This document shows positions 1-5,202 of a stretch of 5,202 nucleotides of DNA, piece after piece. How positions within the stretch are numbered: the first letter of the stretch is position 1; every line of letters starts with the position of its first letter. Location: IMG/VR virus record IMGVR_UViG_2671180275_000007. One strand, given 5' to 3'. The translations under genes were made by a program, and so were the position numbers. The notes under the pieces are model-generated. The model saw only the letters and a program-made list of their open reading frames with translations, did no database searches and was not told the origin of the DNA. The stretch comes from a virus. Taxonomy: Duplodnaviria > Heunggongvirae > Uroviricota > Caudoviricetes.

Positions 1-85
1 AAATCTTACGGATCCGCTTTCCTTCCGCCCCTTGCGGCCTTACATCAACCTTATAACGCCCGTCTTTGAGTTGCTTAATCGACAT
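1..85 (-). CDS. int: Tyrosine integrase, P2-family, N-terminal fragment (gene continues past window start)
   Basis: Minus-strand ATG at 85..83 with GGAGG about 8 nt upstream (complement of 93-99). Translation MSIKQLKDGRYKVDVRPQGAEGKRIRKI resembles the N-terminus of P2-type integrases as I recall it (MAIKKLDDGRYEVDIRP...). Position immediately downstream of the repressor on the same strand matches P2 int-C order. Only 28 codons visible. Confidence 0.75.
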   Translation of the reverse strand, partial: MSIKQLKDGRYKVDVRPQGAEGKRIRKI

Positions 86-154
86 GATTAGCCCCTCCAA
101 CGGATGAATCAGCCGTACACTCTCTACGGAATGAAACCCGCTCGATGTACAGCG

Positions 155-502
155 TTAGCCAGCATTGCGGCCTGATCGGGATGATTTTTGGGTAACGTCG
201 ATTGAAGCCAGATCGCCCTCCGACTGAGAAGATCCATCAAGAGAGAGAGCCGGGGCAATTTGACCCCCAGCTTCAAACGTTTCATCAGTTGTTAACCAAA
301 GTGCATATTTTTTAAAACGTAAATTTTTTGTGATCTTTAATAAGATCTCACTTCCGATTCCATCTTGCCTTCCCGTTTCGTAATACCTCTGCGTATTAAC
401 AGGAATCCCTGTAAGCTCAAAGAATTGCTTCCTTGTAAGCCTCTCACTTTTCCGGATCATCAAGATTTTTTCACCGATACTTATTGACAGTGTCGAATTC
501 AT
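155..502 (-). CDS. Immunity repressor, XRE-family helix-turn-helix, P2 C-like
   Basis: ORF track 155..553 (-); I place the start at the internal ATG (500-502), giving MNSTLSISIGEKILMIRKSERLTRKQFFELTGIPVNTQRYYETGR...FKKYALWLTTDE...GGQIAPAL. The HTH lies 8 aa from this N-terminus, and the block pattern (EKI..MRKSE.L.R.Q...LTG.P...YYE.GR, KY.LW, GQIAPAL) matches my recollection of the P2 C repressor. GAGGA lies 10 nt upstream of the 502 ATG on the minus strand; the ATG at 541 and TTG at 553 have no RBS. Stop TAA at 157..155. Confidence 0.85.
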   Translation of the reverse strand: MNSTLSISIGEKILMIRKSERLTRKQFFELTGIPVNTQRYYETGRQDGIGSEILLKITKNLRFKKYALWLTTDETFEAGGQIAPALSLDGSSQSEGDLASIDVTQKSSRSGRNAG

Positions 503-513
503 ACCACTAAAAT
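484..513 (+). promoter_or_regulatory. Candidate sigma70-type early (Pe-like) promoter: TTGACA-18 bp-TAAAAT
   Basis: Perfect -35 TTGACA at 484-489 and -10-like TAAAAT at 508-513 with 18-bp spacer, oriented toward the Cox-like gene (predicted start near 520). It overlaps the first codons of the repressor gene, compatible with P2/186-type overlapping switch promoters. Sequence motif only; no transcript data. Confidence 0.4.
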
Positions 514-534
514 CCTCGCAAAAGTGTCGTAATT
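489..534. promoter_or_regulatory. Candidate repressor operator: direct repeats AGTGTCG(A/TA)ATT flanking the -10 element
   Basis: AGTGTCGAATT at 489-499 and AGTGTCGTAATT at 523-534, a 7-bp exact core plus AATT tail, centres 34 bp apart, on either side of the candidate -10. P2 C repressor is known to bind direct repeats flanking the -10 of Pe. The second copy is also part of a small inverted repeat TGTCG-n6-CGACA (525-540). Confidence 0.35.
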
Positions 535-538
535 TCGA

Positions 539-561
539 CATCAAACAAATCAAAACAAACC
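539..561. repeat. Tandem A-rich direct repeat CATCAAACAAA / TCAAAACAAACC in the switch leader
   Basis: Read directly: 539-549 CATCAAACAAA followed by 550-561 TCAAAACAAACC, between the candidate early promoter and the Cox-like start codon. A 13-bp exact copy recurs at 1130-1142. Confidence 0.6.
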
Positions 562-603
562 TTCATGAGGCGCGACAAGCGCACCAACGCAAGAGGATAG
601 CAA

Positions 604-1128
604 ATGCGGAAGTCAATTGCCGATAAAGAGTTATCTGACACACAAGCCCTTCAGGAAAACGACAGCATCACCGAATCCGTTGGTGCGGAAAACGACGATG
701 AACACCAAGAGGAAAAGAAAAAACGCACCTACAAAAAAGGGGCAACCTTGCGACTGGATGGCCCGGTAGCCGGACTTTGCTCACTTGAAAAAGGGGCAGC
801 CTATATCGGGTTGACAAAAGCTGCATTGCGCGTGGCGCTTCAGCGAAATCAGATGCCTGGACACAAGACCCGTTCAAACCCTGAAGATGAAAATTCGGAT
901 GGCGTATGGTGGTTTAACGCCAGAGAGTGGGACAAGCTGGCTGACGAACTACCAGAATGCGAGCCGCCAGAATGGCACAACTGGAAAAGCTACTGGACGT
1001 ACGACCGACAGAAAAGAAAGTTTTCCCCGGCAAACAAAGAAGACTGCCAGACCATCAATGGAAAGCGGGTTTACACAGGAAGAAAGTCAAAACTGGAGCA
1101 ACACCAATACAGCGAAGGCAACCAGTGA
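604..1128 (+). CDS. cox: Cox/Apl-like winged-HTH regulator/excisionase with acidic N-terminal and W/K/R-rich C-terminal extensions
   Basis: ATG 604 with AGAGGA 6 nt upstream. Central segment LEKGAAYIGLTKAALRVALQRNQMPG...GVWWFNAREWDKL has the HTH-plus-aromatic-wing pattern of P2 Cox as I recall it (AKLIGKSTGAVRRMIDKGKLPV...GEYWVYLPAWN) and of excisionase-type HTH domains. First gene to the right of the repressor, as for cox in P2. At 174 aa it is about twice the length of P2 Cox; an internal TTG at 745 with an AAAGGGG Shine-Dalgarno-like sequence would give a shorter Cox-sized N-terminus (alternative start). Confidence 0.65.
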   Translation: MRKSIADKELSDTQALQENDSITESVGAENDDEHQEEKKKRTYKKGATLRLDGPVAGLCSLEKGAAYIGLTKAALRVALQRNQMPGHKTRSNPEDENSDGVWWFNAREWDKLADELPECEPPEWHNWKSYWTYDRQKRKFSPANKEDCQTINGKRVYTGRKSKLEQHQYSEGNQ

Positions 1129-1142
1129 CATCAAAACAAACC
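1129..1142. repeat. Distal copy of the leader repeat (CATCAAAACAAACC), immediately after the Cox-like stop codon
   Basis: ATCAAAACAAACC at 1130-1142 is identical to 549-561 (13/13), so the two copies bracket the Cox-like CDS. Followed by CGGGAT...CGGGAT short direct repeats (1142-1147, 1159-1164) and a GATC at 1145. Confidence 0.6.
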
Positions 1143-1179
1143 GGGATCATTAAGAGCATCGGGATTTGAAGGTGTTGAC

Positions 1180-1374
1180 ATGACTGACTCCACTCAAACA
1201 AAAGACTTATACAGCGATTTACGCTTCATCATCATACAACAGCAATCAGGCAGGATGGATCCAACACGTGCAAGCAAGGCCTGGAAAGAAGCCCTTACCG
1301 ATCAGGGGATCGATGTAATTAGCGTAGTCATGGCTGAAGTGATTTTTAGGCTGTCAAGAGACGCGTCACTGTAA
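1180..1374 (+). CDS. Hypothetical small protein (64 aa), early operon
   Basis: ATG 1180 with GAAGGTG 5 nt upstream; same strand and tightly packed with neighbours. No recognisable motif. Confidence 0.5.
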   Translation: MTDSTQTKDLYSDLRFIIIQQQSGRMDPTRASKAWKEALTDQGIDVISVVMAEVIFRLSRDASL

Positions 1375-1399
1375 CCATTACATAAGGACCAGGTGAAGA

Positions 1400-1750
1400 A
1401 TGAAGCAACAACGAAATGCGCGCATCCATAACAACACTGAACGCCACAAATTGCGCAGTGGCGCAGAACGCAACGTTGCGTGTCAGTCCCACCGTAAAAA
1501 TGGTGCGACCGCAACCACTGAAATCCATGCAACACCTGACGGCCGCCCTGTAACACAAACCGGCAAACACACCTGGACGGTTGGCGATACCGGCATCGTC
1601 ATTCACAAAAGCCTTCGCAGCCCTGTTACTGGCAGATTTAATTTTTCTCTGACACGGGGTGATGAATATTTCGGGCAGGACTTCACACTTTTTGAAGCCT
1701 TAAGGACAGCAGACCGCCTGATAAACGGAAGAAGTTTTCACAACAACTAA
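1400..1750 (+). CDS. Hypothetical protein (116 aa), basic polar N-terminal half
   Basis: ATG 1400 preceded by AGGTGA (3-nt spacer) and AGGA (11 nt); fills the gap between neighbouring genes on the operon strand. N-terminal 60 aa are unusually polar/basic and contain two DNA palindromes (1452-1465, 1468-1481), so coding status is less certain than for the neighbours. Confidence 0.45.
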   Translation: MKQQRNARIHNNTERHKLRSGAERNVACQSHRKNGATATTEIHATPDGRPVTQTGKHTWTVGDTGIVIHKSLRSPVTGRFNFSLTRGDEYFGQDFTLFEALRTADRLINGRSFHNN

Positions 1751-1763
1751 CGCGGGTGGAAAT

Positions 1764-1988
1764 ATGAAAAAATATTATCTTTATGAAAGCACACGTGAGT
1801 CCGGGATAATTAAAATAAGTAGTATTAGCTCTGCTACCAGACATGACCGTGAAGTAAAAATTATTCTTAAAGAAGGTGTTGAAATTAATTTGATTACTGA
1901 CACGGAAAGCAACGCTGTTAAATGCGTAAGCGCAATAATAAAAACCATTAAAAATAGATCAAATCCTGCGGACTGGATTGTATTTTAA
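1764..1988 (+). CDS. Hypothetical protein (74 aa) in a sharply AT-rich segment; candidate horizontally acquired moron
   Basis: ATG 1764 with GGTGGA upstream. The ORF is visibly AT-rich (roughly one-third G+C by eye) against a roughly 50% G+C background. Protein MKKYYLYESTRESGIIKISSISS... is I/K/S-rich with no motif I recognise. Confidence 0.5.
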   Translation: MKKYYLYESTRESGIIKISSISSATRHDREVKIILKEGVEINLITDTESNAVKCVSAIIKTIKNRSNPADWIVF

Positions 1989-2012
1989 TCACAGGAGAGA
2001 AAGGAGACAGAC

Positions 2013-2252
2013 ATGAACAACCACTACAAACAATTAGTGAATTTGCTCCTTGAGCGCCACAGTTTTTCACTGGCAAAAACAAACGGAGAAAATAAAACTG
2101 CCGCCGACAACTCCCTGATACTGGGCCTCAGCGGGTTACAACAGGCAGCATTCTGCGCTGACGACAGTGAGGCGCTTACCGAAATAAACGAGCTCATCAG
2201 CCAGATGGATATTGATGGGTACATCCAGCCCTACAATCTGGCGGTCGTATGA
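2013..2252 (+). CDS. Hypothetical protein (79 aa)
   Basis: ATG 2013 with a strong AAGGAG Shine-Dalgarno 6 nt upstream (2001-2006). Stop TGA 2250-2252 overlaps the next start (ATGA). Confidence 0.65.
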   Translation: MNNHYKQLVNLLLERHSFSLAKTNGENKTAADNSLILGLSGLQQAAFCADDSEALTEINELISQMDIDGYIQPYNLAVV

Positions 2253-2353
2253 GTTCAACATTAATCATTATCGCGTCATGGGTGATATTACTGGCGTCAT
2301 TCGTTGTTTCTTATTTCGTGGTGAAGCTGCTTACTCAATATTTAAATCTGTAA
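2249..2353 (+). CDS. Unannotated 34-aa hydrophobic single-pass membrane peptide (MSSTLIIIASWVILLASFVVSYFVVKLLTQYLNL)
   Basis: Not in the ORF track (below length cut-off). ATG 2249-2251 overlaps the upstream stop as ATGA; own translation gives one about 21-residue hydrophobic helix with a short polar tail; stop TAA 2351-2353. Segment is AT-rich. Size and composition resemble phage Kil-type or type I toxin-type membrane peptides. Confidence 0.45.
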   Translation: MSSTLIIIASWVILLASFVVSYFVVKLLTQYLNL

Positions 2354-2401
2354 CAGCAAATGAACTTCCGATAACACCAGAACACACATGAACAGTTAAT
2401 T

Positions 2402-2438
2402 AAGGCATTCATGCCTTCGGGTTCCCTTTGTCTTTTTT
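2402..2438 (+). terminator. Candidate attenuator/weak intrinsic terminator or palindromic protein site: AAGGCATtcATGCCTT then T-tract
   Basis: Near-perfect 16-bp palindrome at 2402-2417 (6-bp stem, 4-nt loop as RNA), preceded by the TTAATTAA palindrome (2396-2403) and followed 13 nt later by TCTTTTTT (2431-2438), just upstream of the RBS of the next gene. The T-tract is not contiguous with the stem, so not a canonical terminator. Confidence 0.3.
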
Positions 2439-2450
2439 CAGGAGACAACA

Positions 2451-2684
2451 ATGAAAACCGTTAAATCACCTGACAAAGAAATAAGCACCGGACAGGAGCA
2501 CATGCACGCACATATCAGCATGGCCGCAAGAAATGCCGAGCGTGCGCATATCTGCGAAATACTGCGCGAGCGGATTGACGGGATGAAAGAAATTAACGCA
2601 TCCCCGGAACAAATCTACTCAGCCATTGAGCGATTAATTGCTGTGCTCATGAACACCCGTGAACAGAAAGGTAACGCACAATGA
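2451..2684 (+). CDS. Hypothetical protein (77 aa)
   Basis: ATG 2451 with AGGAGA 6 nt upstream; stop overlaps the exonuclease start as ATGA (2681-2684). No motif recognised. Confidence 0.65.
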   Translation: MKTVKSPDKEISTGQEHMHAHISMAARNAERAHICEILRERIDGMKEINASPEQIYSAIERLIAVLMNTREQKGNAQ

Positions 2685-3262
2685 ACCACCTCATGATTGA
2701 CACTGAAACACTGGGCTCCGGACCGGATGCCGTCATATTCGCAATTGGCGCGGTGTTTTTCGACCCGTTCACCGGAAAGCTGGGCAAGCAGTTTGAGCAA
2801 TTCATCGACCCGGTGGATTCAGAACGCAACGGCGGAACCGTCAATGCAGCAACCACTGTATGGTGGGCCGGACAATCCGTGGAAGCCAGAGCCTGCCTGC
2901 GCAACGCAAAGGGAACAGAGCTTGCAGCAGTGACCGAATTTCTGGCGTTCATTTCACGCAACATGCATGACGAAAGCCCGGGCAATTCACTGACCATATG
3001 GTGCAAGGGCGCATCCTTCGATTTCCCGATCCTGAAATCCGCCATAACACGCACAGCCGGAGAAAAAAGCATTCCGTGGTGCTACTGGAACGAGCGCTGT
3101 ATGCGCCCGCTTATCGCCATGGCTGAGTCAACGGGCTGGAAAATGCCAGGCAGATCAGGAAAAGAGGCCATTGCTCACACCGCACTAAGCGACGCCATTT
3201 ACCAGGCAAAGATCGTGTCAGAAATCTGGCAGCGCTTCACAACACCATTCCTGAACATATGA
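2681..3262 (+). CDS. DEDDh-family 3'-5' exonuclease, small DnaQ/RNase T-like fold (Rv2179c-like)
   Basis: Exo I motif MIDTETLG at the N-terminus (D-x-E), Exo II-like IWCKGASFDFPIL, Exo III HTALSDAIYQA (H-x4-D) near the C-terminus. Size (193 aa) and motif spacing match the short phage/actinobacterial Rv2179c-like exonuclease family as I recall it. Translationally coupled to the upstream ORF. Confidence 0.85.
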   Translation: MNHLMIDTETLGSGPDAVIFAIGAVFFDPFTGKLGKQFEQFIDPVDSERNGGTVNAATTVWWAGQSVEARACLRNAKGTELAAVTEFLAFISRNMHDESPGNSLTIWCKGASFDFPILKSAITRTAGEKSIPWCYWNERCMRPLIAMAESTGWKMPGRSGKEAIAHTALSDAIYQAKIVSEIWQRFTTPFLNI

Positions 3263-3271
3263 GGTGAAGCC

Positions 3272-3499
3272 ATGGTCGCCATCCTGAATATGCGTTGCCG
3301 CCCCCCCCTGAACGTGGAAACAAAAGCCCGCACGTCTCTGCGCTTATTTCGCAACGGAGCGCGGAATTTTTCACGCATAAAGCCCCACGACTACCTGGTC
3401 ATAAGAATCGGTTTTCGCTGGCGATTACTGAGCAAAAACAACGGGAAGTCATGGGATTTATTAACGCACGAAACCTATAACAGAGAGGCCGCGTTATGA
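3272..3499 (+). CDS. Hypothetical basic protein (75 aa) containing a C8 homopolymer tract; coupled to dam
   Basis: ATG 3272 with GAGGTG 5 nt upstream; stop TGA 3497-3499 overlaps the dam ATG 3496-3498 (ATGA). R/K-rich product (MVAILNMRCRPPLNVETKAR...). The C8 run at 3301-3308 encodes RPPL. Coding status rests on RBS and coupling geometry only. Confidence 0.4.
   Translation: MVAILNMRCRPPLNVETKARTSLRLFRNGARNFSRIKPHDYLVIRIGFRWRLLSKNNGKSWDLLTHETYNREAAL
3301..3308. repeat. Homopolymeric C8 tract (G8 on the minus strand)
   Basis: Read directly: gccgCCCCCCCCtg at 3297-3310; the only homopolymer of 8 or more G/C I can see in the window. Lies 30 nt into ORF 3272..3499. Confidence 0.9.
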
Positions 3500-4470
3500 G
3501 CGAAAAACTGTTATCCGGCACACCGCTGAAATGGGTGGGCGGAAAAAACCGCATCATGGACACACTGAAGGCGCACCTGCCAGAAGCTGACTGCCTGGTT
3601 GAGCCGTTCGTGGGTGGCGCATCGGTATTCATGAACACCCGTTACAGCCGCTGCATCCTTGGAGATTCCAACGGTGCGCTGATTAATTTCTGGCGGGCAG
3701 CACGGGACAACACCGACAGCCTGATCGATGAGGCAAAAGACCTGTTCCTGGAACATAACAACAGGGCTGACTATCTCGCCATCCGCAACACCTTTAATGC
3801 AGAGAATCATGCATTCCTGAGCACGGGAATAAGCGACCGCCGTGAACTGCGACTGGCCGCCATGTTTTTGTACCTCAACCGGCACTGTTTTAATGGCCTG
3901 TACCGGGTGAACGGAAAAGGTGATTTTAACGTGCCTTTCGGCGGCTACCGAAAACCCTACTTCCCTGAGCGGGAAATCCGCGCATTTGCAGACAAGGCAA
4001 ACAGCACCCAAACGCTGCTTGTTCATGGCGATTTTCGAAAAACGCTGAGCTGTGCCAGCCACCTGTTCAGCATGGGTAACACGCTTTGCGTGTACTGCGA
4101 TCCCCCTTACCTGCCATTCAGTGGCCGGGACAATTTCACCGCCTATGGAAAACCCTTCACGAAGGACGACCACATTCGCCTGAGAGCAGCGCTTGACCGC
4201 CTTTCACAGGAAACGGGCGGCATGACCAGCATCACCATCTCCAATTCCGACACACCGGAAACCAGACGCATTTATCAGGGTTACCGGATGAACTGCATAC
4301 AGGCACCACGAAGCGTTGGCGCAAGAACCAGTGAACCCGCAATGGAAGTTATCGCCACCCTGAAGCAGTGCGACACCTGCGGTCGCCATGGCGGTGGCTG
4401 GTGCCCGGACTGCGGCCCGGCGACGGGAGATGCAACGTACAGCGCGATGTTTACCTCTGCTCACCCGTGA
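3496..4470 (+). CDS. dam: DNA adenine methyltransferase, Dam family (GATC N6-adenine MTase), with about 45-aa C-terminal Cys4 extension
   Basis: Strong block-by-block match to E. coli Dam as I recall it: LKWVGGK (Dam LKWAGGK), CLVEPFVGGASVFMNT, FLYLNRHCFNGLYRVNGKGDFNVPFGGYRKPYFPE, catalytic VYCDPPYLPFSGRDNFTAYG (DPPY), ISNSDT. Extra C-terminal tail contains CDTC-x7-CPDC (nt 4369-4413). Antisense ORF 3511..4173 is spurious. Confidence 0.95.
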   Translation: MSEKLLSGTPLKWVGGKNRIMDTLKAHLPEADCLVEPFVGGASVFMNTRYSRCILGDSNGALINFWRAARDNTDSLIDEAKDLFLEHNNRADYLAIRNTFNAENHAFLSTGISDRRELRLAAMFLYLNRHCFNGLYRVNGKGDFNVPFGGYRKPYFPEREIRAFADKANSTQTLLVHGDFRKTLSCASHLFSMGNTLCVYCDPPYLPFSGRDNFTAYGKPFTKDDHIRLRAALDRLSQETGGMTSITISNSDTPETRRIYQGYRMNCIQAPRSVGARTSEPAMEVIATLKQCDTCGRHGGGWCPDCGPATGDATYSAMFTSAHP

Positions 4471-4505
4471 ATAACCAGATGAATCAGCAACACAGGAGTC
4501 AACCG

Positions 4506-4751
4506 GTGAATAACAAAAGCACGCAGCAATCAATCGTCGTTTCAGCACTGAGATATCTGGCCTGCATCAAACAACAGGAAGCAAGAGAGGCGGTGGAGAA
4601 GCGGGATTCGGGGATATTTGTGGCACTTGGACACAGCTATACGGCAATGCTTGCCAGCAGGTCCGCTGAATTCATTGAGGAGCAGCAACGGGAAATTGAG
4701 GCACTTAAAACCGCAGCAAACAAGGAACGGAGAGGAAGGGGCGAACAATGA
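4506..4751 (+). CDS. Hypothetical protein (about 81 aa; GTG start favoured, ATG 4479 alternative)
   Basis: In-frame with track ORF 4368..4751, whose first 33 codons overlap the dam 3' end (dam stop 4468-4470) and are unlikely to be translated. GTG 4506 is preceded by AGGAG (4494-4498) at 7 nt; ATG 4479 lacks an RBS. C-terminal part is charged and coiled-coil-like (EEQQREIEALKTAANKERR). Confidence 0.5.
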   Translation: MNNKSTQQSIVVSALRYLACIKQQEAREAVEKRDSGIFVALGHSYTAMLASRSAEFIEEQQREIEALKTAANKERRGRGEQ

Positions 4752-4966
4752 TCCAGGAATCAACCGTTATCCGGTTCACAGCCAACGGCCGTCAGTACGA
4801 AGTCGACGAAAGCCTGATTGACCCGGGCATGACACGCCAGGACTCACGCAATCCTGAGATGCATCACATCCGCCTTATCAACGGCTCGCACTTCTGCGCC
4901 ACGAACATGGAAGAAGTACGCGTGCTGACAGCAACACGCAACACGGGAGGTACAGCATGGCAGTGA
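4748..4966 (+). CDS. Hypothetical protein (72 aa)
   Basis: ATG 4748 overlaps the upstream stop (ATGA, 4748-4751); GGAGAGGAAGGGG purine-rich RBS upstream. No motif recognised. Confidence 0.55.
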   Translation: MIQESTVIRFTANGRQYEVDESLIDPGMTRQDSRNPEMHHIRLINGSHFCATNMEEVRVLTATRNTGGTAWQ

Positions 4967-5202
4967 TTTATATCGCCGGTCCCATGACCGGATACAAAGA
5001 CCACAACAGAACGGCGTTTTCCATGGCGGCGATGAAGCTTAAGTCAGCCGGATACACCGCACTCAACCCTGCCATACTGCCGGACGGACTAAGCCAGCAG
5101 CAGTACATGAGCATTTGTATTTCGATGCTCATGTGTGCCGATGCCATTTACTTACTGGAAGGCTGGACGGAGTCAGCTGGCGCACGGGCTGAGTACGCAA
5201 TG
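4957..5202 (+). CDS. DUF4406-like protein (nucleoside 2-deoxyribosyltransferase-like fold), N-terminal 82 codons; continues past window end
   Basis: Not in the ORF track because it runs off the window. ATG 4957 with GGGAGG 6 nt upstream, overlapping the upstream ORF by 10 nt. Own translation MAVIYIAGPMTGYKDHNRTAFSMAAMKLKSAGYTALNPAILPDG...CADAIYLLEGWTESAGARAEYAM shows the IY(I/L)(A/S)GPMTG...N...F......L...G....NP...L......C(D/A)A...L.GW..S.GA..E pattern I associate with DUF4406. No stop to 5202. Confidence 0.75.
   Translation, partial: MAVIYIAGPMTGYKDHNRTAFSMAAMKLKSAGYTALNPAILPDGLSQQQYMSICISMLMCADAIYLLEGWTESAGARAEYAM

What the first reader, a model, noticed from the sequence alone, without database searches (positions are those of the whole stretch)
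3272..3499. C8 homopolymer tract inside a small ORF that is translationally coupled to dam: possible slipped-strand on/off switch for the methyltransferase
The 75-aa basic ORF has its stop fused to the dam start (ATGA at 3496-3499), so dam translation plausibly depends on ribosomes terminating there. Thirty nucleotides into that ORF is an uninterrupted C8 run (3301-3308). A +1 or -1 slip would shift into a frame that terminates early (the -1 frame corresponds to track ORF 3295..3480, ending before 3496), which could uncouple and reduce Dam translation. Homopolymer-driven phase variation of DNA methyltransferases (phasevarions) is established in several bacteria; for a phage-borne Dam in this arrangement it would be unusual. 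Alternatively the C-tract is incidental, or the ORF is not translated and the region is a structured leader.
Basis: partly seen in the sequence, partly recalled or inferred. Interest (0 to 1): 0.6.

Follow-up and report, generated by a model that had tools for sequence, protein, structure and literature searches.

The report
Hypermutable poly-C tract in prophage gene
A run of eight C's near the start of a small, conserved toxin-like gene of an E. coli P2-like prophage changes length (C6 to C10) again and again in nature, switching that gene in and out of frame; the neighbouring DNA methylase is probably little affected.

Summary
The C8 run is at 3301-3308, 30 nt into the 75-codon ORF 3272-3499, whose stop overlaps the dam start (ATGA).

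The ORF is a real gene, not a leader. It matches Pfam ParE_like (E 7e-18) and phrog_1525, is a 72-78-aa protein conserved across Enterobacterales temperate phages, and changes mostly at synonymous sites.

The tract varies in nature. In 33 related E. coli prophage sequences I found:
- C8 in 21
- C7 in 6
- C9 in 3
- C10 in 1
- interrupted in 2

Out-of-frame alleles sit next to nearly identical C8 relatives, for example 0-5 mismatches in 1.4-3 kb with no other indel. That implies at least 10 independent slips. Exact-protein look-ups put C6-, C7- and C9-type products on about 200 contigs, against at least 1,360 for C8. C8 is the in-frame, majority state.

The switch acts on ParE_like. A strong effect on Dam is unlikely:
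- dam has its own GAGG Shine-Dalgarno.
- No RNA structure occludes the dam start.
- C9 alleles still carry ribosomes to 15 nt before the dam ATG.

Other genera lack the tract, but unrelated lambdoid prophages carry their own variable poly-C just upstream of ParE_like. This is a new member of a known kind (hypermutable homopolymer, or phage contingency locus). Whether it is adaptive is unproven.

The parts
2681..3262 (+). Upstream early gene: 3'-5' exonuclease (Rv2179c-like). Its TGA stop (3260-3262) is part of the ParE_like Shine-Dalgarno.
   Evidence: Pfam PF16473, E 5.7e-51. PGAP annotation in SCU-106.
3261..3266 (+). Shine-Dalgarno GAGGTG for the canonical ParE_like start, 5 nt upstream of ATG 3272.
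   Evidence: Read from the sequence. Identical in all 33 E. coli-clade sequences, because it was part of the search pattern. A TGAGG + ATG arrangement is also present in other genera.
3272..3499 (+). 75-aa ParE_like gene (phrog_1525). This is the gene whose frame the tract controls.
   Evidence: Pfam PF24732, E 6.7e-18, residues 14-71. phrog_1525, E 5.6e-27, residues 5-73. 37 homologous clusters, mostly 75 aa. Polymorphic codons in the domain are mostly synonymous. AlphaFold model pLDDT 84.5. Weak Foldseek hits are almost all RelE/ParE-superfamily toxins.
3301..3308 (+). Poly-C tract (C8), covering codons R10-P11-P12-L13 (CGC CCC CCC CTG), in the predicted loop between strand 1 and helix 1. 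This is the hypermutable site.
   Evidence: Natural alleles are C7, C8, C9, C10 and interrupted, and a C6 type inferred from protein. Near-identical flanks carry different tract lengths.
3309..3311 (+). TGA that becomes in frame in C7 and C10 alleles, giving a 12-13-aa product that ends 184 nt before the dam ATG.
3314..3316 (+). In-frame GTG (V15), 2 nt after that TGA. PGAP uses it as the start in some out-of-frame alleles (61-aa product). It is a possible re-initiation site.
   Evidence: Re-initiation is an inference.
3478..3480 (+). TAA that ends the frame entered by C9 and C6 alleles, giving a 69-aa out-of-frame product that stops 15 nt before the dam ATG.
   Evidence: This frame has no Pfam hit.
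3482..3488 (+). dam's own Shine-Dalgarno (AGAGAGG; GAGG core at 3485-3488, 7 nt before the ATG).
   Evidence: Read from the sequence. Conserved in alignment A1. No stable occluding structure.
3496..3499 (+). ATGA: the dam start overlapping the ParE_like stop.
   Evidence: Stop-to-start distance is -4 in every E. coli-clade locus with an in-frame ORF that reaches the junction. The same overlap occurs in four other genera.
3496..4470 (+). Phage orphan Dam-family N6-adenine DNA methyltransferase (324 aa) with a Cys-rich C-terminal tail.
   Evidence: TIGR00571 232.9 bits (cut-off 114.85) and PF02086 E 7.8e-53. PADLOC orphan MTase.

Best explanation
The C8 run is a genuine replication-slippage hot spot at codons 10-12 of a real, conserved early gene of a P2-like E. 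coli prophage. That gene encodes a 75-aa ParE_like protein of unknown function.

C8 is the in-frame, ancestral and majority state. Gaining or losing C's uncouples the strongly initiated ATG 3272 from the ParE_like domain:
- C7 and C10 stop after 12-13 codons.
- C9 and C6 give a 69-aa nonsense product.

The tract therefore works as an on/off, or at least on/low, toggle for ParE_like. Such slips arise a few hundred times more often than a substitution at a single nucleotide. Out-of-frame alleles make up roughly 10-30% of natural copies, depending on the data set, and appear short-lived.

Dam is probably translated largely from its own Shine-Dalgarno. Any effect of tract length on Dam is likely to be a modest polar or coupling effect, strongest in C7 and C10 alleles.

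Shown: the polymorphism, its recurrence, the frame consequences, and that the ORF is coding. Inferred: slippage as the mechanism, the rate, the independence of dam translation, and re-initiation at GTG 3314. Open: whether the tract is kept by selection as a bet-hedging device or is only tolerated.
For: Coding status:
- Pfam ParE_like E 6.7e-18 and phrog_1525 E 5.6e-27 covering residues 5-73.
- 75-aa homologues with a conserved N-terminus across Klebsiella, Enterobacter, Citrobacter, Salmonella and Pantoea, and in isolated phages such as Salmonella SW3 and SI7.
- Of 22 polymorphic codons downstream of the tract, 10 are purely synonymous; within the conserved core (codons 38-70) 6 of 9 are.

Polymorphism:
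- 33 DNA copies: C8 in 21, C7 in 6, C9 in 3, C10 in 1, interrupted in 2.
- Exact-protein counts: C8 products on at least 1000 + 200 + 160 contigs; C7-type on 100 + 3 + 2; C9-type on 31 + 3 + 2 + 1; a post-tract GTG-start product made from out-of-frame alleles on 31 + 2; C6-type on 36.
- By their accession series these appear to be mostly NCBI draft assemblies. I infer short-read data, so this is unlikely to be a long-read artefact.
- The out-of-frame share is similar in complete genomes and in metagenome/IMG-VR contigs. Six of 27 complete genomes are out of frame; 12 of the 27 were read directly, and the other 15 were assigned C8 or counted in frame from alignment span or identity. Four of 20 metagenome/IMG-VR contigs are out of frame.

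Recurrence, with no other indel in any pair:
- L010 (C9) vs L033 (C7): 4 mismatches in 3000 nt.
- L034 (C10) vs L050 (C8): 3 in 2421 nt.
- L005 (C7) vs L045 (C8): 1 in 1939 nt.
- L009 (C7) vs L037 (C8): 2 in 1653 nt.
- L049 (C7) vs L044 (C8): 5 in 1858 nt.
- A rough tip-cluster estimate gives about 350 times the per-site substitution rate.

Selection for the in-frame state: 21 of 31 uninterrupted tracts are in frame against 1/3 expected (p = 9e-5). This test treats the copies as independent, although some are near-duplicates.

Other points:
- Frame consequences were computed on the real alleles.
- A C7 allele lies in an apparently intact prophage.
- dam independence rests on its own GAGG Shine-Dalgarno and on no excess RNA structure (z +1.1).
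- Literature: indel rates rise exponentially with run length, and 8-bp G·C runs are outliers in E. coli (PMC8510543). 5' homopolymers mutate about 1000 times faster than point mutation (PMC2831843). Phage contingency loci are described for T2 and T4 (10.1101/2025.10.21.683753).
Against: - There are no within-population (read-level) data, so reversible switching inside a clone is not shown.
- Small sets of clonal isolates (SW0716xx x3; G1/2, G6/7, G8) have identical alignment spans. This argues against very fast switching.
- The tract is absent from orthologues in other genera and is broken by non-synonymous changes in some E. coli lineages (CCCCACCC). It is therefore dispensable.
- Dam independence was not measured. 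A 184-nt untranslated gap in C7 and C10 alleles could cause Rho-dependent polarity on dam and on the downstream replication genes.
- ParE_like function and toxicity are unknown. Structural matches to RelE/ParE toxins are weak (E about 0.1, TM 0.4-0.57).
Confidence: 0.72

Rival explanations
1. The tract is primarily a slipped-strand on/off switch for the phage Dam methyltransferase. Dam translation depends on ribosomes terminating at the ATGA overlap, so out-of-frame tract lengths switch Dam off (phasevarion-like).
For: - The ATGA overlap is conserved in every complete E. coli-clade copy and in four other genera.
- Tract length really varies.
- C7 and C10 alleles leave 184 nt untranslated before dam, which could also invite Rho-dependent polarity.
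- Precedent: phage T2's contingency locus lies in a DNA-modification gene (10.1101/2025.10.21.683753).
- Over-expressed Dam, including phage P1 Dam, can trigger retron abortive infection (10.1101/2020.06.22.160242), so variable Dam could pay.
Against: - dam has its own GAGG Shine-Dalgarno at optimal spacing and no occluding structure.
- C9 and C6 alleles terminate only 15 nt upstream of the dam ATG.
- In C7 and C10 alleles an in-frame GTG lies 2 nt after the stop, so ribosome flow may be restored.
- ParE_like genes occur with the same stop/start overlap in front of unrelated genes (Citrobacter, Trabulsiella, Raoultella). The analogous lambdoid poly-C tract is associated with ParE_like and not with a methylase.
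- The host has its own Dam.
- The operon lies downstream of the divergent repressor gene and, from what is known of P2/186-type phages, is expected to be silent in lysogens.
Confidence: 0.12
2. Adaptive contingency locus. The tract is maintained by selection so that a fraction of prophages or virions carry ParE_like off, perhaps with lowered downstream expression. This would hedge against hosts in which this early protein is harmful or is sensed by a defence system.
For: - The tract persists in two sub-lineages whose immediate flanks differ (ATATGCGTTGCCG-C8 and ATGTGTGTTGCTG-C8).
- An independent variable poly-C tract (C6-C10; 10 of 22 out of frame) sits in the phrog_340 gene just upstream of ParE_like. 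It occurs in lambdoid prophages that differ by up to about 18% in their flanks.
- In that set, one pair is identical over 2400 nt except for C9 against C10.
- Raoultella L031 has yet another C10 run, about 40 nt upstream of its ParE_like start.
- Phage contingency loci have been shown experimentally in T2 and T4 (10.1101/2025.10.21.683753).
Against: - A C8 run in a mismatch-repair-proficient host is expected to slip at about the inferred rate without any selection (PMC8510543, PMC2831843).
- Out-of-frame alleles at 10-30% fit mutation-selection balance for a gene that is rarely expressed.
- Orthologues in other genera lack the tract.
- The lambdoid loci carry several other G/C runs (poly-G G7-G11 and C7-C12). 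Long G/C runs may be a general property of that phage group and not specific to ParE_like.
- No synonymous-site test for tract maintenance reached significance.
Confidence: 0.3
3. Artefact. The length differences are homopolymer sequencing or assembly errors, and the tract is stable and incidental.
For: - Several out-of-frame alleles come from long-read complete genomes (NCTC9112, JNEC-KY series), where C8-C9 runs are error-prone.
- Some metagenome contigs have low coverage.
Against: - The same out-of-frame products recur on 100 (C7), 31 (C9) and 36 (C6) contigs. By their accession series these appear to be mostly NCBI draft assemblies, which I infer are short-read.
- Out-of-frame fractions are alike in long-read genomes and in metagenome/IMG-VR contigs.
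- No other indels appear in the 1.4-3 kb flanks of the near-identical pairs.
- A two-step difference (C10 against C8, C9 against C7) is unlikely to be a consensus error.
Confidence: 0.04

Closest known systems
Phage contingency loci (poly-A repeats in T2 agt and T4 rIIA; Gomez, Barrick & Waters, bioRxiv 10.1101/2025.10.21.683753)
   Same: A mononucleotide repeat inside a non-essential phage gene. Frameshifts of +1 or -1 arise and revert about 1000 times faster than point mutations, creating on/off heterogeneity in phage populations. The repeat lies in or next to DNA-modification functions.
   Different: - Here the phage is temperate (a P2-like prophage) and the repeat is G/C, not A.
- The evidence is between-strain polymorphism, not measured switching.
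- The affected gene is a ParE_like protein of unknown function.
- No selective agent is known.
5' homopolymeric-tract inactivation of Listeria monocytogenes inlA (Orsi et al., PMC2831843) and the E. coli kpsC A7 tract (PMC13410964)
   Same: The homopolymer lies a few codons into the ORF. Slips give a very short truncated peptide (8 aa in InlA, 12 aa here). The same frameshift has independent recurrent origins in natural isolates. The rate is estimated at 100 to 1000 times that of point mutation.
   Different: Those are chromosomal surface or virulence genes expressed by the cell. This is a phage early-operon gene that is expected to be silent in the lysogen. Reversion has not been shown here.
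Phasevarions (repeat-controlled mod/hsd methyltransferases of Haemophilus, Neisseria and Helicobacter; e.g. PMC4209511)
   Same: A simple sequence repeat and a DNA methyltransferase lie in one transcription unit, and the tract length is polymorphic.
   Different: The repeat is not in the methyltransferase ORF or its promoter. The methylase is an orphan phage Dam in a Dam-positive host. No regulon effect is expected or shown. dam has an independent ribosome-binding site.
RelE/ParE-superfamily type II toxins (ParE, YoeB, HigB, YafQ)
   Same: Pfam places the protein in ParE_like (PF24732). The predicted fold is strand-helix followed by a 4-stranded sheet and a helix. The best structural neighbours are RelE/ParE toxins.
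   Different: - It is only 75 aa, with one N-terminal helix instead of two.
- No adjacent antitoxin gene is recognisable in the P2-like context; the upstream gene is an exonuclease and the downstream gene is dam.
- No PDB sequence relative was found.
- Structural matches are weak (E about 0.1).
- Toxicity is untested.
Translational coupling through overlapping stop/start (ATGA) in phage operons
   Same: The 4-nt ATGA overlap between ParE_like and dam is conserved across genera.
   Different: The downstream gene keeps a good Shine-Dalgarno and an unstructured start region. The overlap may simply reflect compact phage gene packing.

Membership tests
Simple-sequence-repeat contingency locus (hypermutable homopolymer) | A repeat placed in an ORF or promoter so that length change alters expression. 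| tested here: met
   The C8 run covers codons 10-12. C7 and C10 give a 12-13-aa product, C9 gives a 69-aa out-of-frame product, and C8 gives the 75-aa ParE_like protein.
Simple-sequence-repeat contingency locus (hypermutable homopolymer) | Tract length is polymorphic between closely related strains whose flanks are otherwise identical, with independent recurrence. | tested here: met
   At least 10 independent out-of-frame alleles were found. Each of five near-identical pairs has 1-5 mismatches in 1.4-3 kb, and none has another indel. Variant products occur on hundreds of contigs.
Simple-sequence-repeat contingency locus (hypermutable homopolymer) | High-frequency reversible switching within a clonal population. 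| not testable with these tools
   No read-level data are available. Clonal isolate sets (H16-18, H20-22) show the same alignment span, which argues only against extremely fast switching.
Simple-sequence-repeat contingency locus (hypermutable homopolymer) | The tract is maintained by selection, and the product faces unpredictable selection. | tested here: inconclusive
   For: the tract is retained in two E. coli sub-lineages, and there is an analogous poly-C upstream of ParE_like in lambdoid prophages. Against: it is absent in other genera and interrupted in some lineages.
Phasevarion | The repeat lies within the methyltransferase (mod/hsd) gene or its promoter. | tested here: not met
   The tract lies in the separate upstream ParE_like ORF, 188 nt before the dam ATG.
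Phasevarion | Methyltransferase expression switches with tract length and changes a regulon. | not testable with these tools
   The only indirect evidence is dam's own Shine-Dalgarno and the lack of an occluding structure. The host encodes Dam (established knowledge).
ParE_like (Pfam PF24732) / RelE-ParE toxin superfamily | The sequence matches the family model above its curated threshold. | tested here: met
   64.9 bits against a gathering score of 24.4, E 6.7e-18, residues 14-71.
ParE_like (Pfam PF24732) / RelE-ParE toxin superfamily | RelE/ParE fold. | tested here: inconclusive
   The AlphaFold model (pLDDT 84.5) has top Foldseek hits to YoeB, HigB, YafQ, GraT and ParE. However, E is at least 0.09 and TM is 0.37-0.57.
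ParE_like (Pfam PF24732) / RelE-ParE toxin superfamily | A cognate antitoxin gene is adjacent. | tested here: not met
   The neighbours are a 3'-5' exonuclease and dam. In lambdoid contexts an 82-aa phrog_340 gene of unknown function overlaps the ParE_like start; its role is unknown.
ParE_like (Pfam PF24732) / RelE-ParE toxin superfamily | Toxic activity (gyrase poisoning or mRNA cleavage). | not testable with these tools
   No experimental report was found.
Translationally coupled gene pair | Overlapping stop and start codons. | tested here: met
   ATGA at 3496-3499, conserved in relatives.
Translationally coupled gene pair | The downstream gene lacks an accessible ribosome-binding site of its own and depends on upstream translation. 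| tested here: not met
   GAGG lies 7 nt before the ATG. The MFE of 3430-3540 is -19.2 kcal/mol against -22.3 for shuffles, z +1.1. Actual dependence was not measured.
Dam family N6-adenine methyltransferase | The sequence matches TIGR00571 or PF02086 above threshold. | tested here: met
   232.9 bits (cut-off 114.85); PF02086 E 7.8e-53. GATC specificity is inferred from the family and was not tested.

The most novel reading that the evidence does not exclude
Temperate phages of Enterobacteriaceae may use G/C homopolymers as true contingency loci for the ParE_like early protein.
- P2-like E. coli prophages carry the tract inside the gene.
- Lambdoid prophages independently carry a C6-C10 tract in the overlapping upstream gene.

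In every prophage population a reversible minority would therefore enter the lytic cycle with ParE_like off and, through polarity, with altered Dam or downstream expression. This would be bet-hedging against host defences that sense or are triggered by these early proteins.
Probability: 0.22. Interest if true: 0.7.

Novelty: new member of a known kind. Interest (0 to 1): 0.48.

Why it matters
Contingency loci in phages were first proposed in 2025, and only for virulent coliphages with poly-A repeats.

This locus offers a ready-made natural example in a temperate phage. A single G/C tract has slipped at least ten independent times in sequenced E. coli, and it sits in a widespread phage gene of unknown function (ParE_like, phrog_1525) immediately upstream of an anti-restriction-type Dam.

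There is also a practical annotation lesson. PGAP hides these frameshifts by choosing alternative starts, giving 46-, 61-, 68- and 70-aa "ParE family toxin-like proteins". The on/off polymorphism is therefore invisible in annotation.

If the switch is adaptive, it would point to a cost or a defence trigger attached to ParE_like, and would give a handle on that protein's function. If it is not, the locus is a clean case of a mutational hot spot held in check by weak selection in a prophage.

Tried and rejected
- Megablast of 3100-3700 against 50,697 phage records found no match. Relatives were found only as prophages in E. coli genomes, and by protein in Klebsiella and Salmonella phages.
- NCBIfam has no model hit for the small protein. 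PADLOC gave no hit. A PDB sequence search with the family profile gave no hit at E up to 10.
- The structured-leader idea is rejected. Folds of 3250-3340 and 3430-3540 are no more stable than shuffles (z +0.9 and +1.1).
- An internal promoter or terminator between the exonuclease gene and dam was not found.
- The alternative-frame ORF 3295..3480 as a second protein is rejected. It has no family hit. It is open in all E. coli-clade copies, but these are about 90% identical, so this says little.
- A synonymous-site test for selection maintaining the tract was considered. With only about 4 synonymous positions it has no power, so I did not pursue it.
- Literature searches for PF24732, and for P2-like prophage plus homopolymer or phase variation, found nothing specific.
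- The genome-contig scan (one genome per species) returned only other genera, none with the tract. It is useful as an outgroup but not for counting alleles.
Full report
**1. Observation**

The window reads ...AATATGCGTTGCCG-CCCCCCCC-TGAACGTGGAAAC..., with the C8 run at 3301-3308. ORF 3272..3499 encodes 75 aa with pI 11.4. Its TGA overlaps the ATG of the 324-aa ORF 3496..4470 as ATGA. A GAGGTG Shine-Dalgarno (3261-3266) lies 5 nt before ATG 3272 and incorporates the stop of the preceding gene.

A C8 or G8 run is not rare by composition alone. 18 of 200 shuffles of the window have one. But in 201 kb of related E. coli-clade loci, every G/C run of 8 or more is this tract.

**2. Context**

The central 601 nt are 100% identical to three E. 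coli chromosomes, and related copies occur in 28 of 5,426 complete genomes. In strain SCU-106 the region lies in a P2-like prophage. That prophage has an integrase, an HTH repressor, the early genes, a replication endonuclease, a portal, a terminase and a GPO scaffold.

The gene order is 3'-5' exonuclease (PF16473), then the small ORF, then a Dam-family methylase (TIGR00571, 232.9 bits). All three lie in the early rightward operon, downstream of the divergent repressor gene. From what is known of P2/186-type phages, this operon is expected to be repressed in lysogens.

**3. The small ORF is a real gene**

- It matches Pfam PF24732 ParE_like (E 6.7e-18, residues 14-71) and phrog_1525 (E 5.6e-27, residues 5-73 of a 75-position profile).
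- A protein search found 37 clusters, mostly exactly 75 aa, in Klebsiella, Enterobacter, Citrobacter, Salmonella and Pantoea. Their N-terminus is conserved (MHPRLSVVCSAPLPVC...).
- Homologues occur in isolated phages such as Salmonella SW3, SW5 and SI7 and several Klebsiella phages.
- Within the E. coli clade, 10 of 22 polymorphic codons are purely synonymous. In the conserved core (codons 38-70), 6 of 9 are.
- An AlphaFold model (pLDDT 84.5) has strand 4-7, helix 13-27, four strands and a C-terminal helix. The tract encodes the loop between strand 1 and helix 1.
- Foldseek hits to the PDB are weak (E at least 0.09), but almost all are RelE/ParE-superfamily toxins.
- There is no PDB sequence relative and no defence-system match.

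The region is no more structured as RNA than shuffled sequence.

**4. The tract varies in length**

I fetched 12 complete-genome loci, 13 metagenome contigs and 7 IMG/VR contigs with a pattern that spans the tract. Counting the window, the result is C8 in 21, C7 in 6, C9 in 3, C10 in 1 and an interrupted CCCCACCC in 2.

Each out-of-frame allele has a close relative with a different tract length:

| Pair | Tract lengths | Mismatches |
|---|---|---|
| L010 vs L033 | C9 vs C7 | 4 in 3000 nt |
| L034 vs L050 | C10 vs C8 | 3 in 2421 nt |
| L005 vs L045 | C7 vs C8 | 1 in 1939 nt |
| L009 vs L037 | C7 vs C8 | 2 in 1653 nt |
| L049 vs L044 | C7 vs C8 | 5 in 1858 nt |

None of these pairs has any other indel. 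This implies at least 10 independent events, all at the tips of the tree.

A rough count in the five tightest clusters gives 6-7 tract changes against about 37 substitutions per 2 kb. That is about 350 times the per-nucleotide substitution rate. It is of the order reported for 5' homopolymers (PMC2831843) and for phage contingency loci (10.1101/2025.10.21.683753). It also agrees with the exponential dependence of indel rate on run length in E. coli (PMC8510543).

**5. The variation is not a sequencing artefact**

Exact-sequence look-ups in the 15-billion-protein collection gave the following contig counts:

| Allele type | Product | Contigs |
|---|---|---|
| C8 | 75 aa | at least 1000, 200 and 160 (three sequence variants) |
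| C7 | 68 aa (MLLPPLNV...) | 100 |
| C7 | 67 aa (MPPPLNV...) | 3 |
| C9 | 70 aa (MCVAAPPLNV...) | 31 and 3 |
| out of frame (start after the tract) | 61 aa | 31 |
| C6 | 69 aa (MCVAAPLNV...) | 36 |

By their accession series most of these appear to be NCBI draft assemblies, which I infer are short-read.

The out-of-frame share is similar across data types. It is 6 of 27 in complete genomes, where 12 loci were read directly and 15 were assigned from alignment span or identity. It is 4 of 20 in metagenome and IMG/VR contigs. One C7 allele (MSB1_4I) lies in an apparently intact prophage. One other (JNEC-KY203) lies in a prophage truncated by IS1.

**6. Consequences of each length**

- C8 gives the 75-aa protein.
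- C7 and C10 make TGA 3309-3311 in frame. The result is a 12-13-aa peptide, with 184 nt left before the dam ATG.
- C9 and C6 enter the frame of ORF 3295..3480. The result is a 69-aa product with no family match, stopping 15 nt before the dam ATG.

It belongs to the +1 insertion.

In-frame C8 is significantly over-represented, at 21 of 31 against 1/3 expected (p = 9e-5). This test treats the copies as independent. No C5 or C11 was seen. Out-of-frame alleles therefore appear short-lived, either purged or reverted.

PGAP does not flag these alleles as pseudogenes. It picks other start codons, giving 46, 61, 68 or 70 aa.

**7. Dam**

The ATGA overlap is conserved in every complete E. coli-clade copy and in Yokenella, Klebsiella, Raoultella and Hafnia. 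Several points argue against Dam depending on it:

- dam has its own GAGG, 7 nt upstream of its ATG.
- No stable structure covers its start (z +1.1).
- No promoter or terminator intervenes.
- In C9 and C6 alleles, ribosomes still reach to within 15 nt of the dam start.
- In C7 and C10 alleles, an in-frame GTG (3314) lies 2 nt after the stop. This is a classic re-initiation geometry, which I infer and have not shown.
- ParE_like genes show the same overlap in front of unrelated genes in Citrobacter, Trabulsiella and Raoultella.

I therefore judge a strong Dam switch unlikely (about 0.12). It remains testable, because polarity in C7 and C10 alleles cannot be excluded.

The phasevarion label fails a defining test, because the repeat is not in the methyltransferase or its promoter. 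In addition, E. coli has its own Dam, and the operon is expected to be silent in lysogens.

**8. Is the tract maintained?**

Orthologues in other genera have no homopolymer at this site. For example, they read TGCAGCGCGCCATTG, encoding CSAPL. Some E. coli lineages have broken the tract with non-synonymous changes (P→T, P→H). The tract is therefore dispensable.

Against that, it is retained in two sub-lineages whose immediate flanks differ at 3 of 14 positions.

There is also an unexpected parallel in a distant ParE_like clade, carried on lambdoid prophages (context). There, the 82-aa phrog_340 gene that overlaps the ParE_like start carries its own poly-C at codons 13-15:

- Lengths are C6 in 3, C8 in 3, C9 in 8 and C10 in 7, with one interrupted copy. 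Ten of the 22 are out of frame.
- The tract persists across flanks that differ by up to about 18%.
- One pair is identical over 2400 nt apart from C9 against C10.
- Raoultella L031 has a different C10, about 40 nt before its ParE_like start.

This recurrence is the best argument for an adaptive contingency role centred on ParE_like. It is tempered by the fact that those lambdoid loci hold further variable G/C runs, namely poly-G G7-G11 and C7-C12. Long G/C runs may be a general trait of that phage group.

**9. Verdict**

The tract is a real, recurrently slipping homopolymer that toggles a conserved ParE_like early gene. Its effect on Dam is unproven and probably small.

In kind it belongs with hypermutable 5' homopolymers and the recently described phage contingency loci. 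It is a new member of that kind, being temperate, G/C-based and supported by population evidence, and it is not a new mechanism.

Mutation-selection balance in a rarely expressed prophage gene explains the data without invoking adaptation. The lambdoid parallel keeps the bet-hedging reading alive, at about 0.2-0.3.

Noticed in passing
L027 2818, L029 2804, L030 2799; L054-L073 (lambdoid prophages of Citrobacter, Trabulsiella and E. coli LR536431): An 82-aa phrog_340 gene directly upstream of, and overlapping, a ParE_like gene carries its own poly-C tract at codons 13-15. Lengths are C6, C8, C9 and C10, and 10 of 22 are out of frame. L057 (C10) and L071 (C9) are identical over 2400 nt otherwise. 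The DNA after the tract (..AACGTGGA..) and the peptide PP(V)LNV(D/E) resemble the window's tract context.
   Followed up: partly
About 497 nt upstream of that poly-C in L027, L030, L054-L073 (e.g. L027 2290): There is a second variable tract, poly-G G7 to G11, in the context AAAGGGG..GCAATAATG. Depending on its length, the upstream ORF either stops (..KGGGQ**) or continues into a 37-aa extension (MTFLKDKAAH...). The run also resembles a Shine-Dalgarno for that ATG.
   Followed up: partly
L031 1785 and 2952 (Raoultella sp. BIGb0138): C12 and C10 runs occur in the same lambdoid-type early region. The C10 lies near the 3' end of the phrog_340 homologue, about 40 nt before the ParE_like start. It leaves the conserved C-terminal residues out of frame.
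   Followed up: no
window 4330-4470 (Dam residues about 279-320): Dam has a Cys-rich C-terminal tail (CDTCGRHGGGWCPDCG). It is weakly similar to the C-terminus of exodeoxyribonuclease VIII (RecE; NF007259, E 2e-4) and to phrog_20376 exonuclease (E 1e-7). This may be a shared zinc-ribbon-like module.
   Followed up: no
L004, L005, L007-L010 at about 1685-1700, equivalent to window 3285-3300: In the sub-lineage AATGTGTGTTGCTG-Cn, start codons (ATG, GTG, GTG, TTG) lie in all three frames within 12 nt upstream of the tract. PGAP can therefore always call an ORF through the tract (68, 70 or 75 aa), and the frameshift is never flagged as a pseudogene.
   Followed up: partly
Protein collection, cluster 1: The 90%-identity cluster that holds the ParE_like variants has a 193-aa 3'-5' exonuclease as its representative. 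It mixes both proteins, which suggests a chained or fused gene call somewhere in the collection.
   Followed up: no
window 1-5202 against L001 (SCU-106): The 601-nt core is 100% identical, but the flanks differ by 22 mismatches in 3 kb. The window comes from a different, mosaic relative of the SCU-106 prophage.
   Followed up: no
L005 (JNEC-KY203) 182-879: An IS1 insertion next to ycaD has removed the left part of this prophage, including the integrase, repressor and early genes. This truncated copy carries a C7 (out-of-frame) tract.
   Followed up: no
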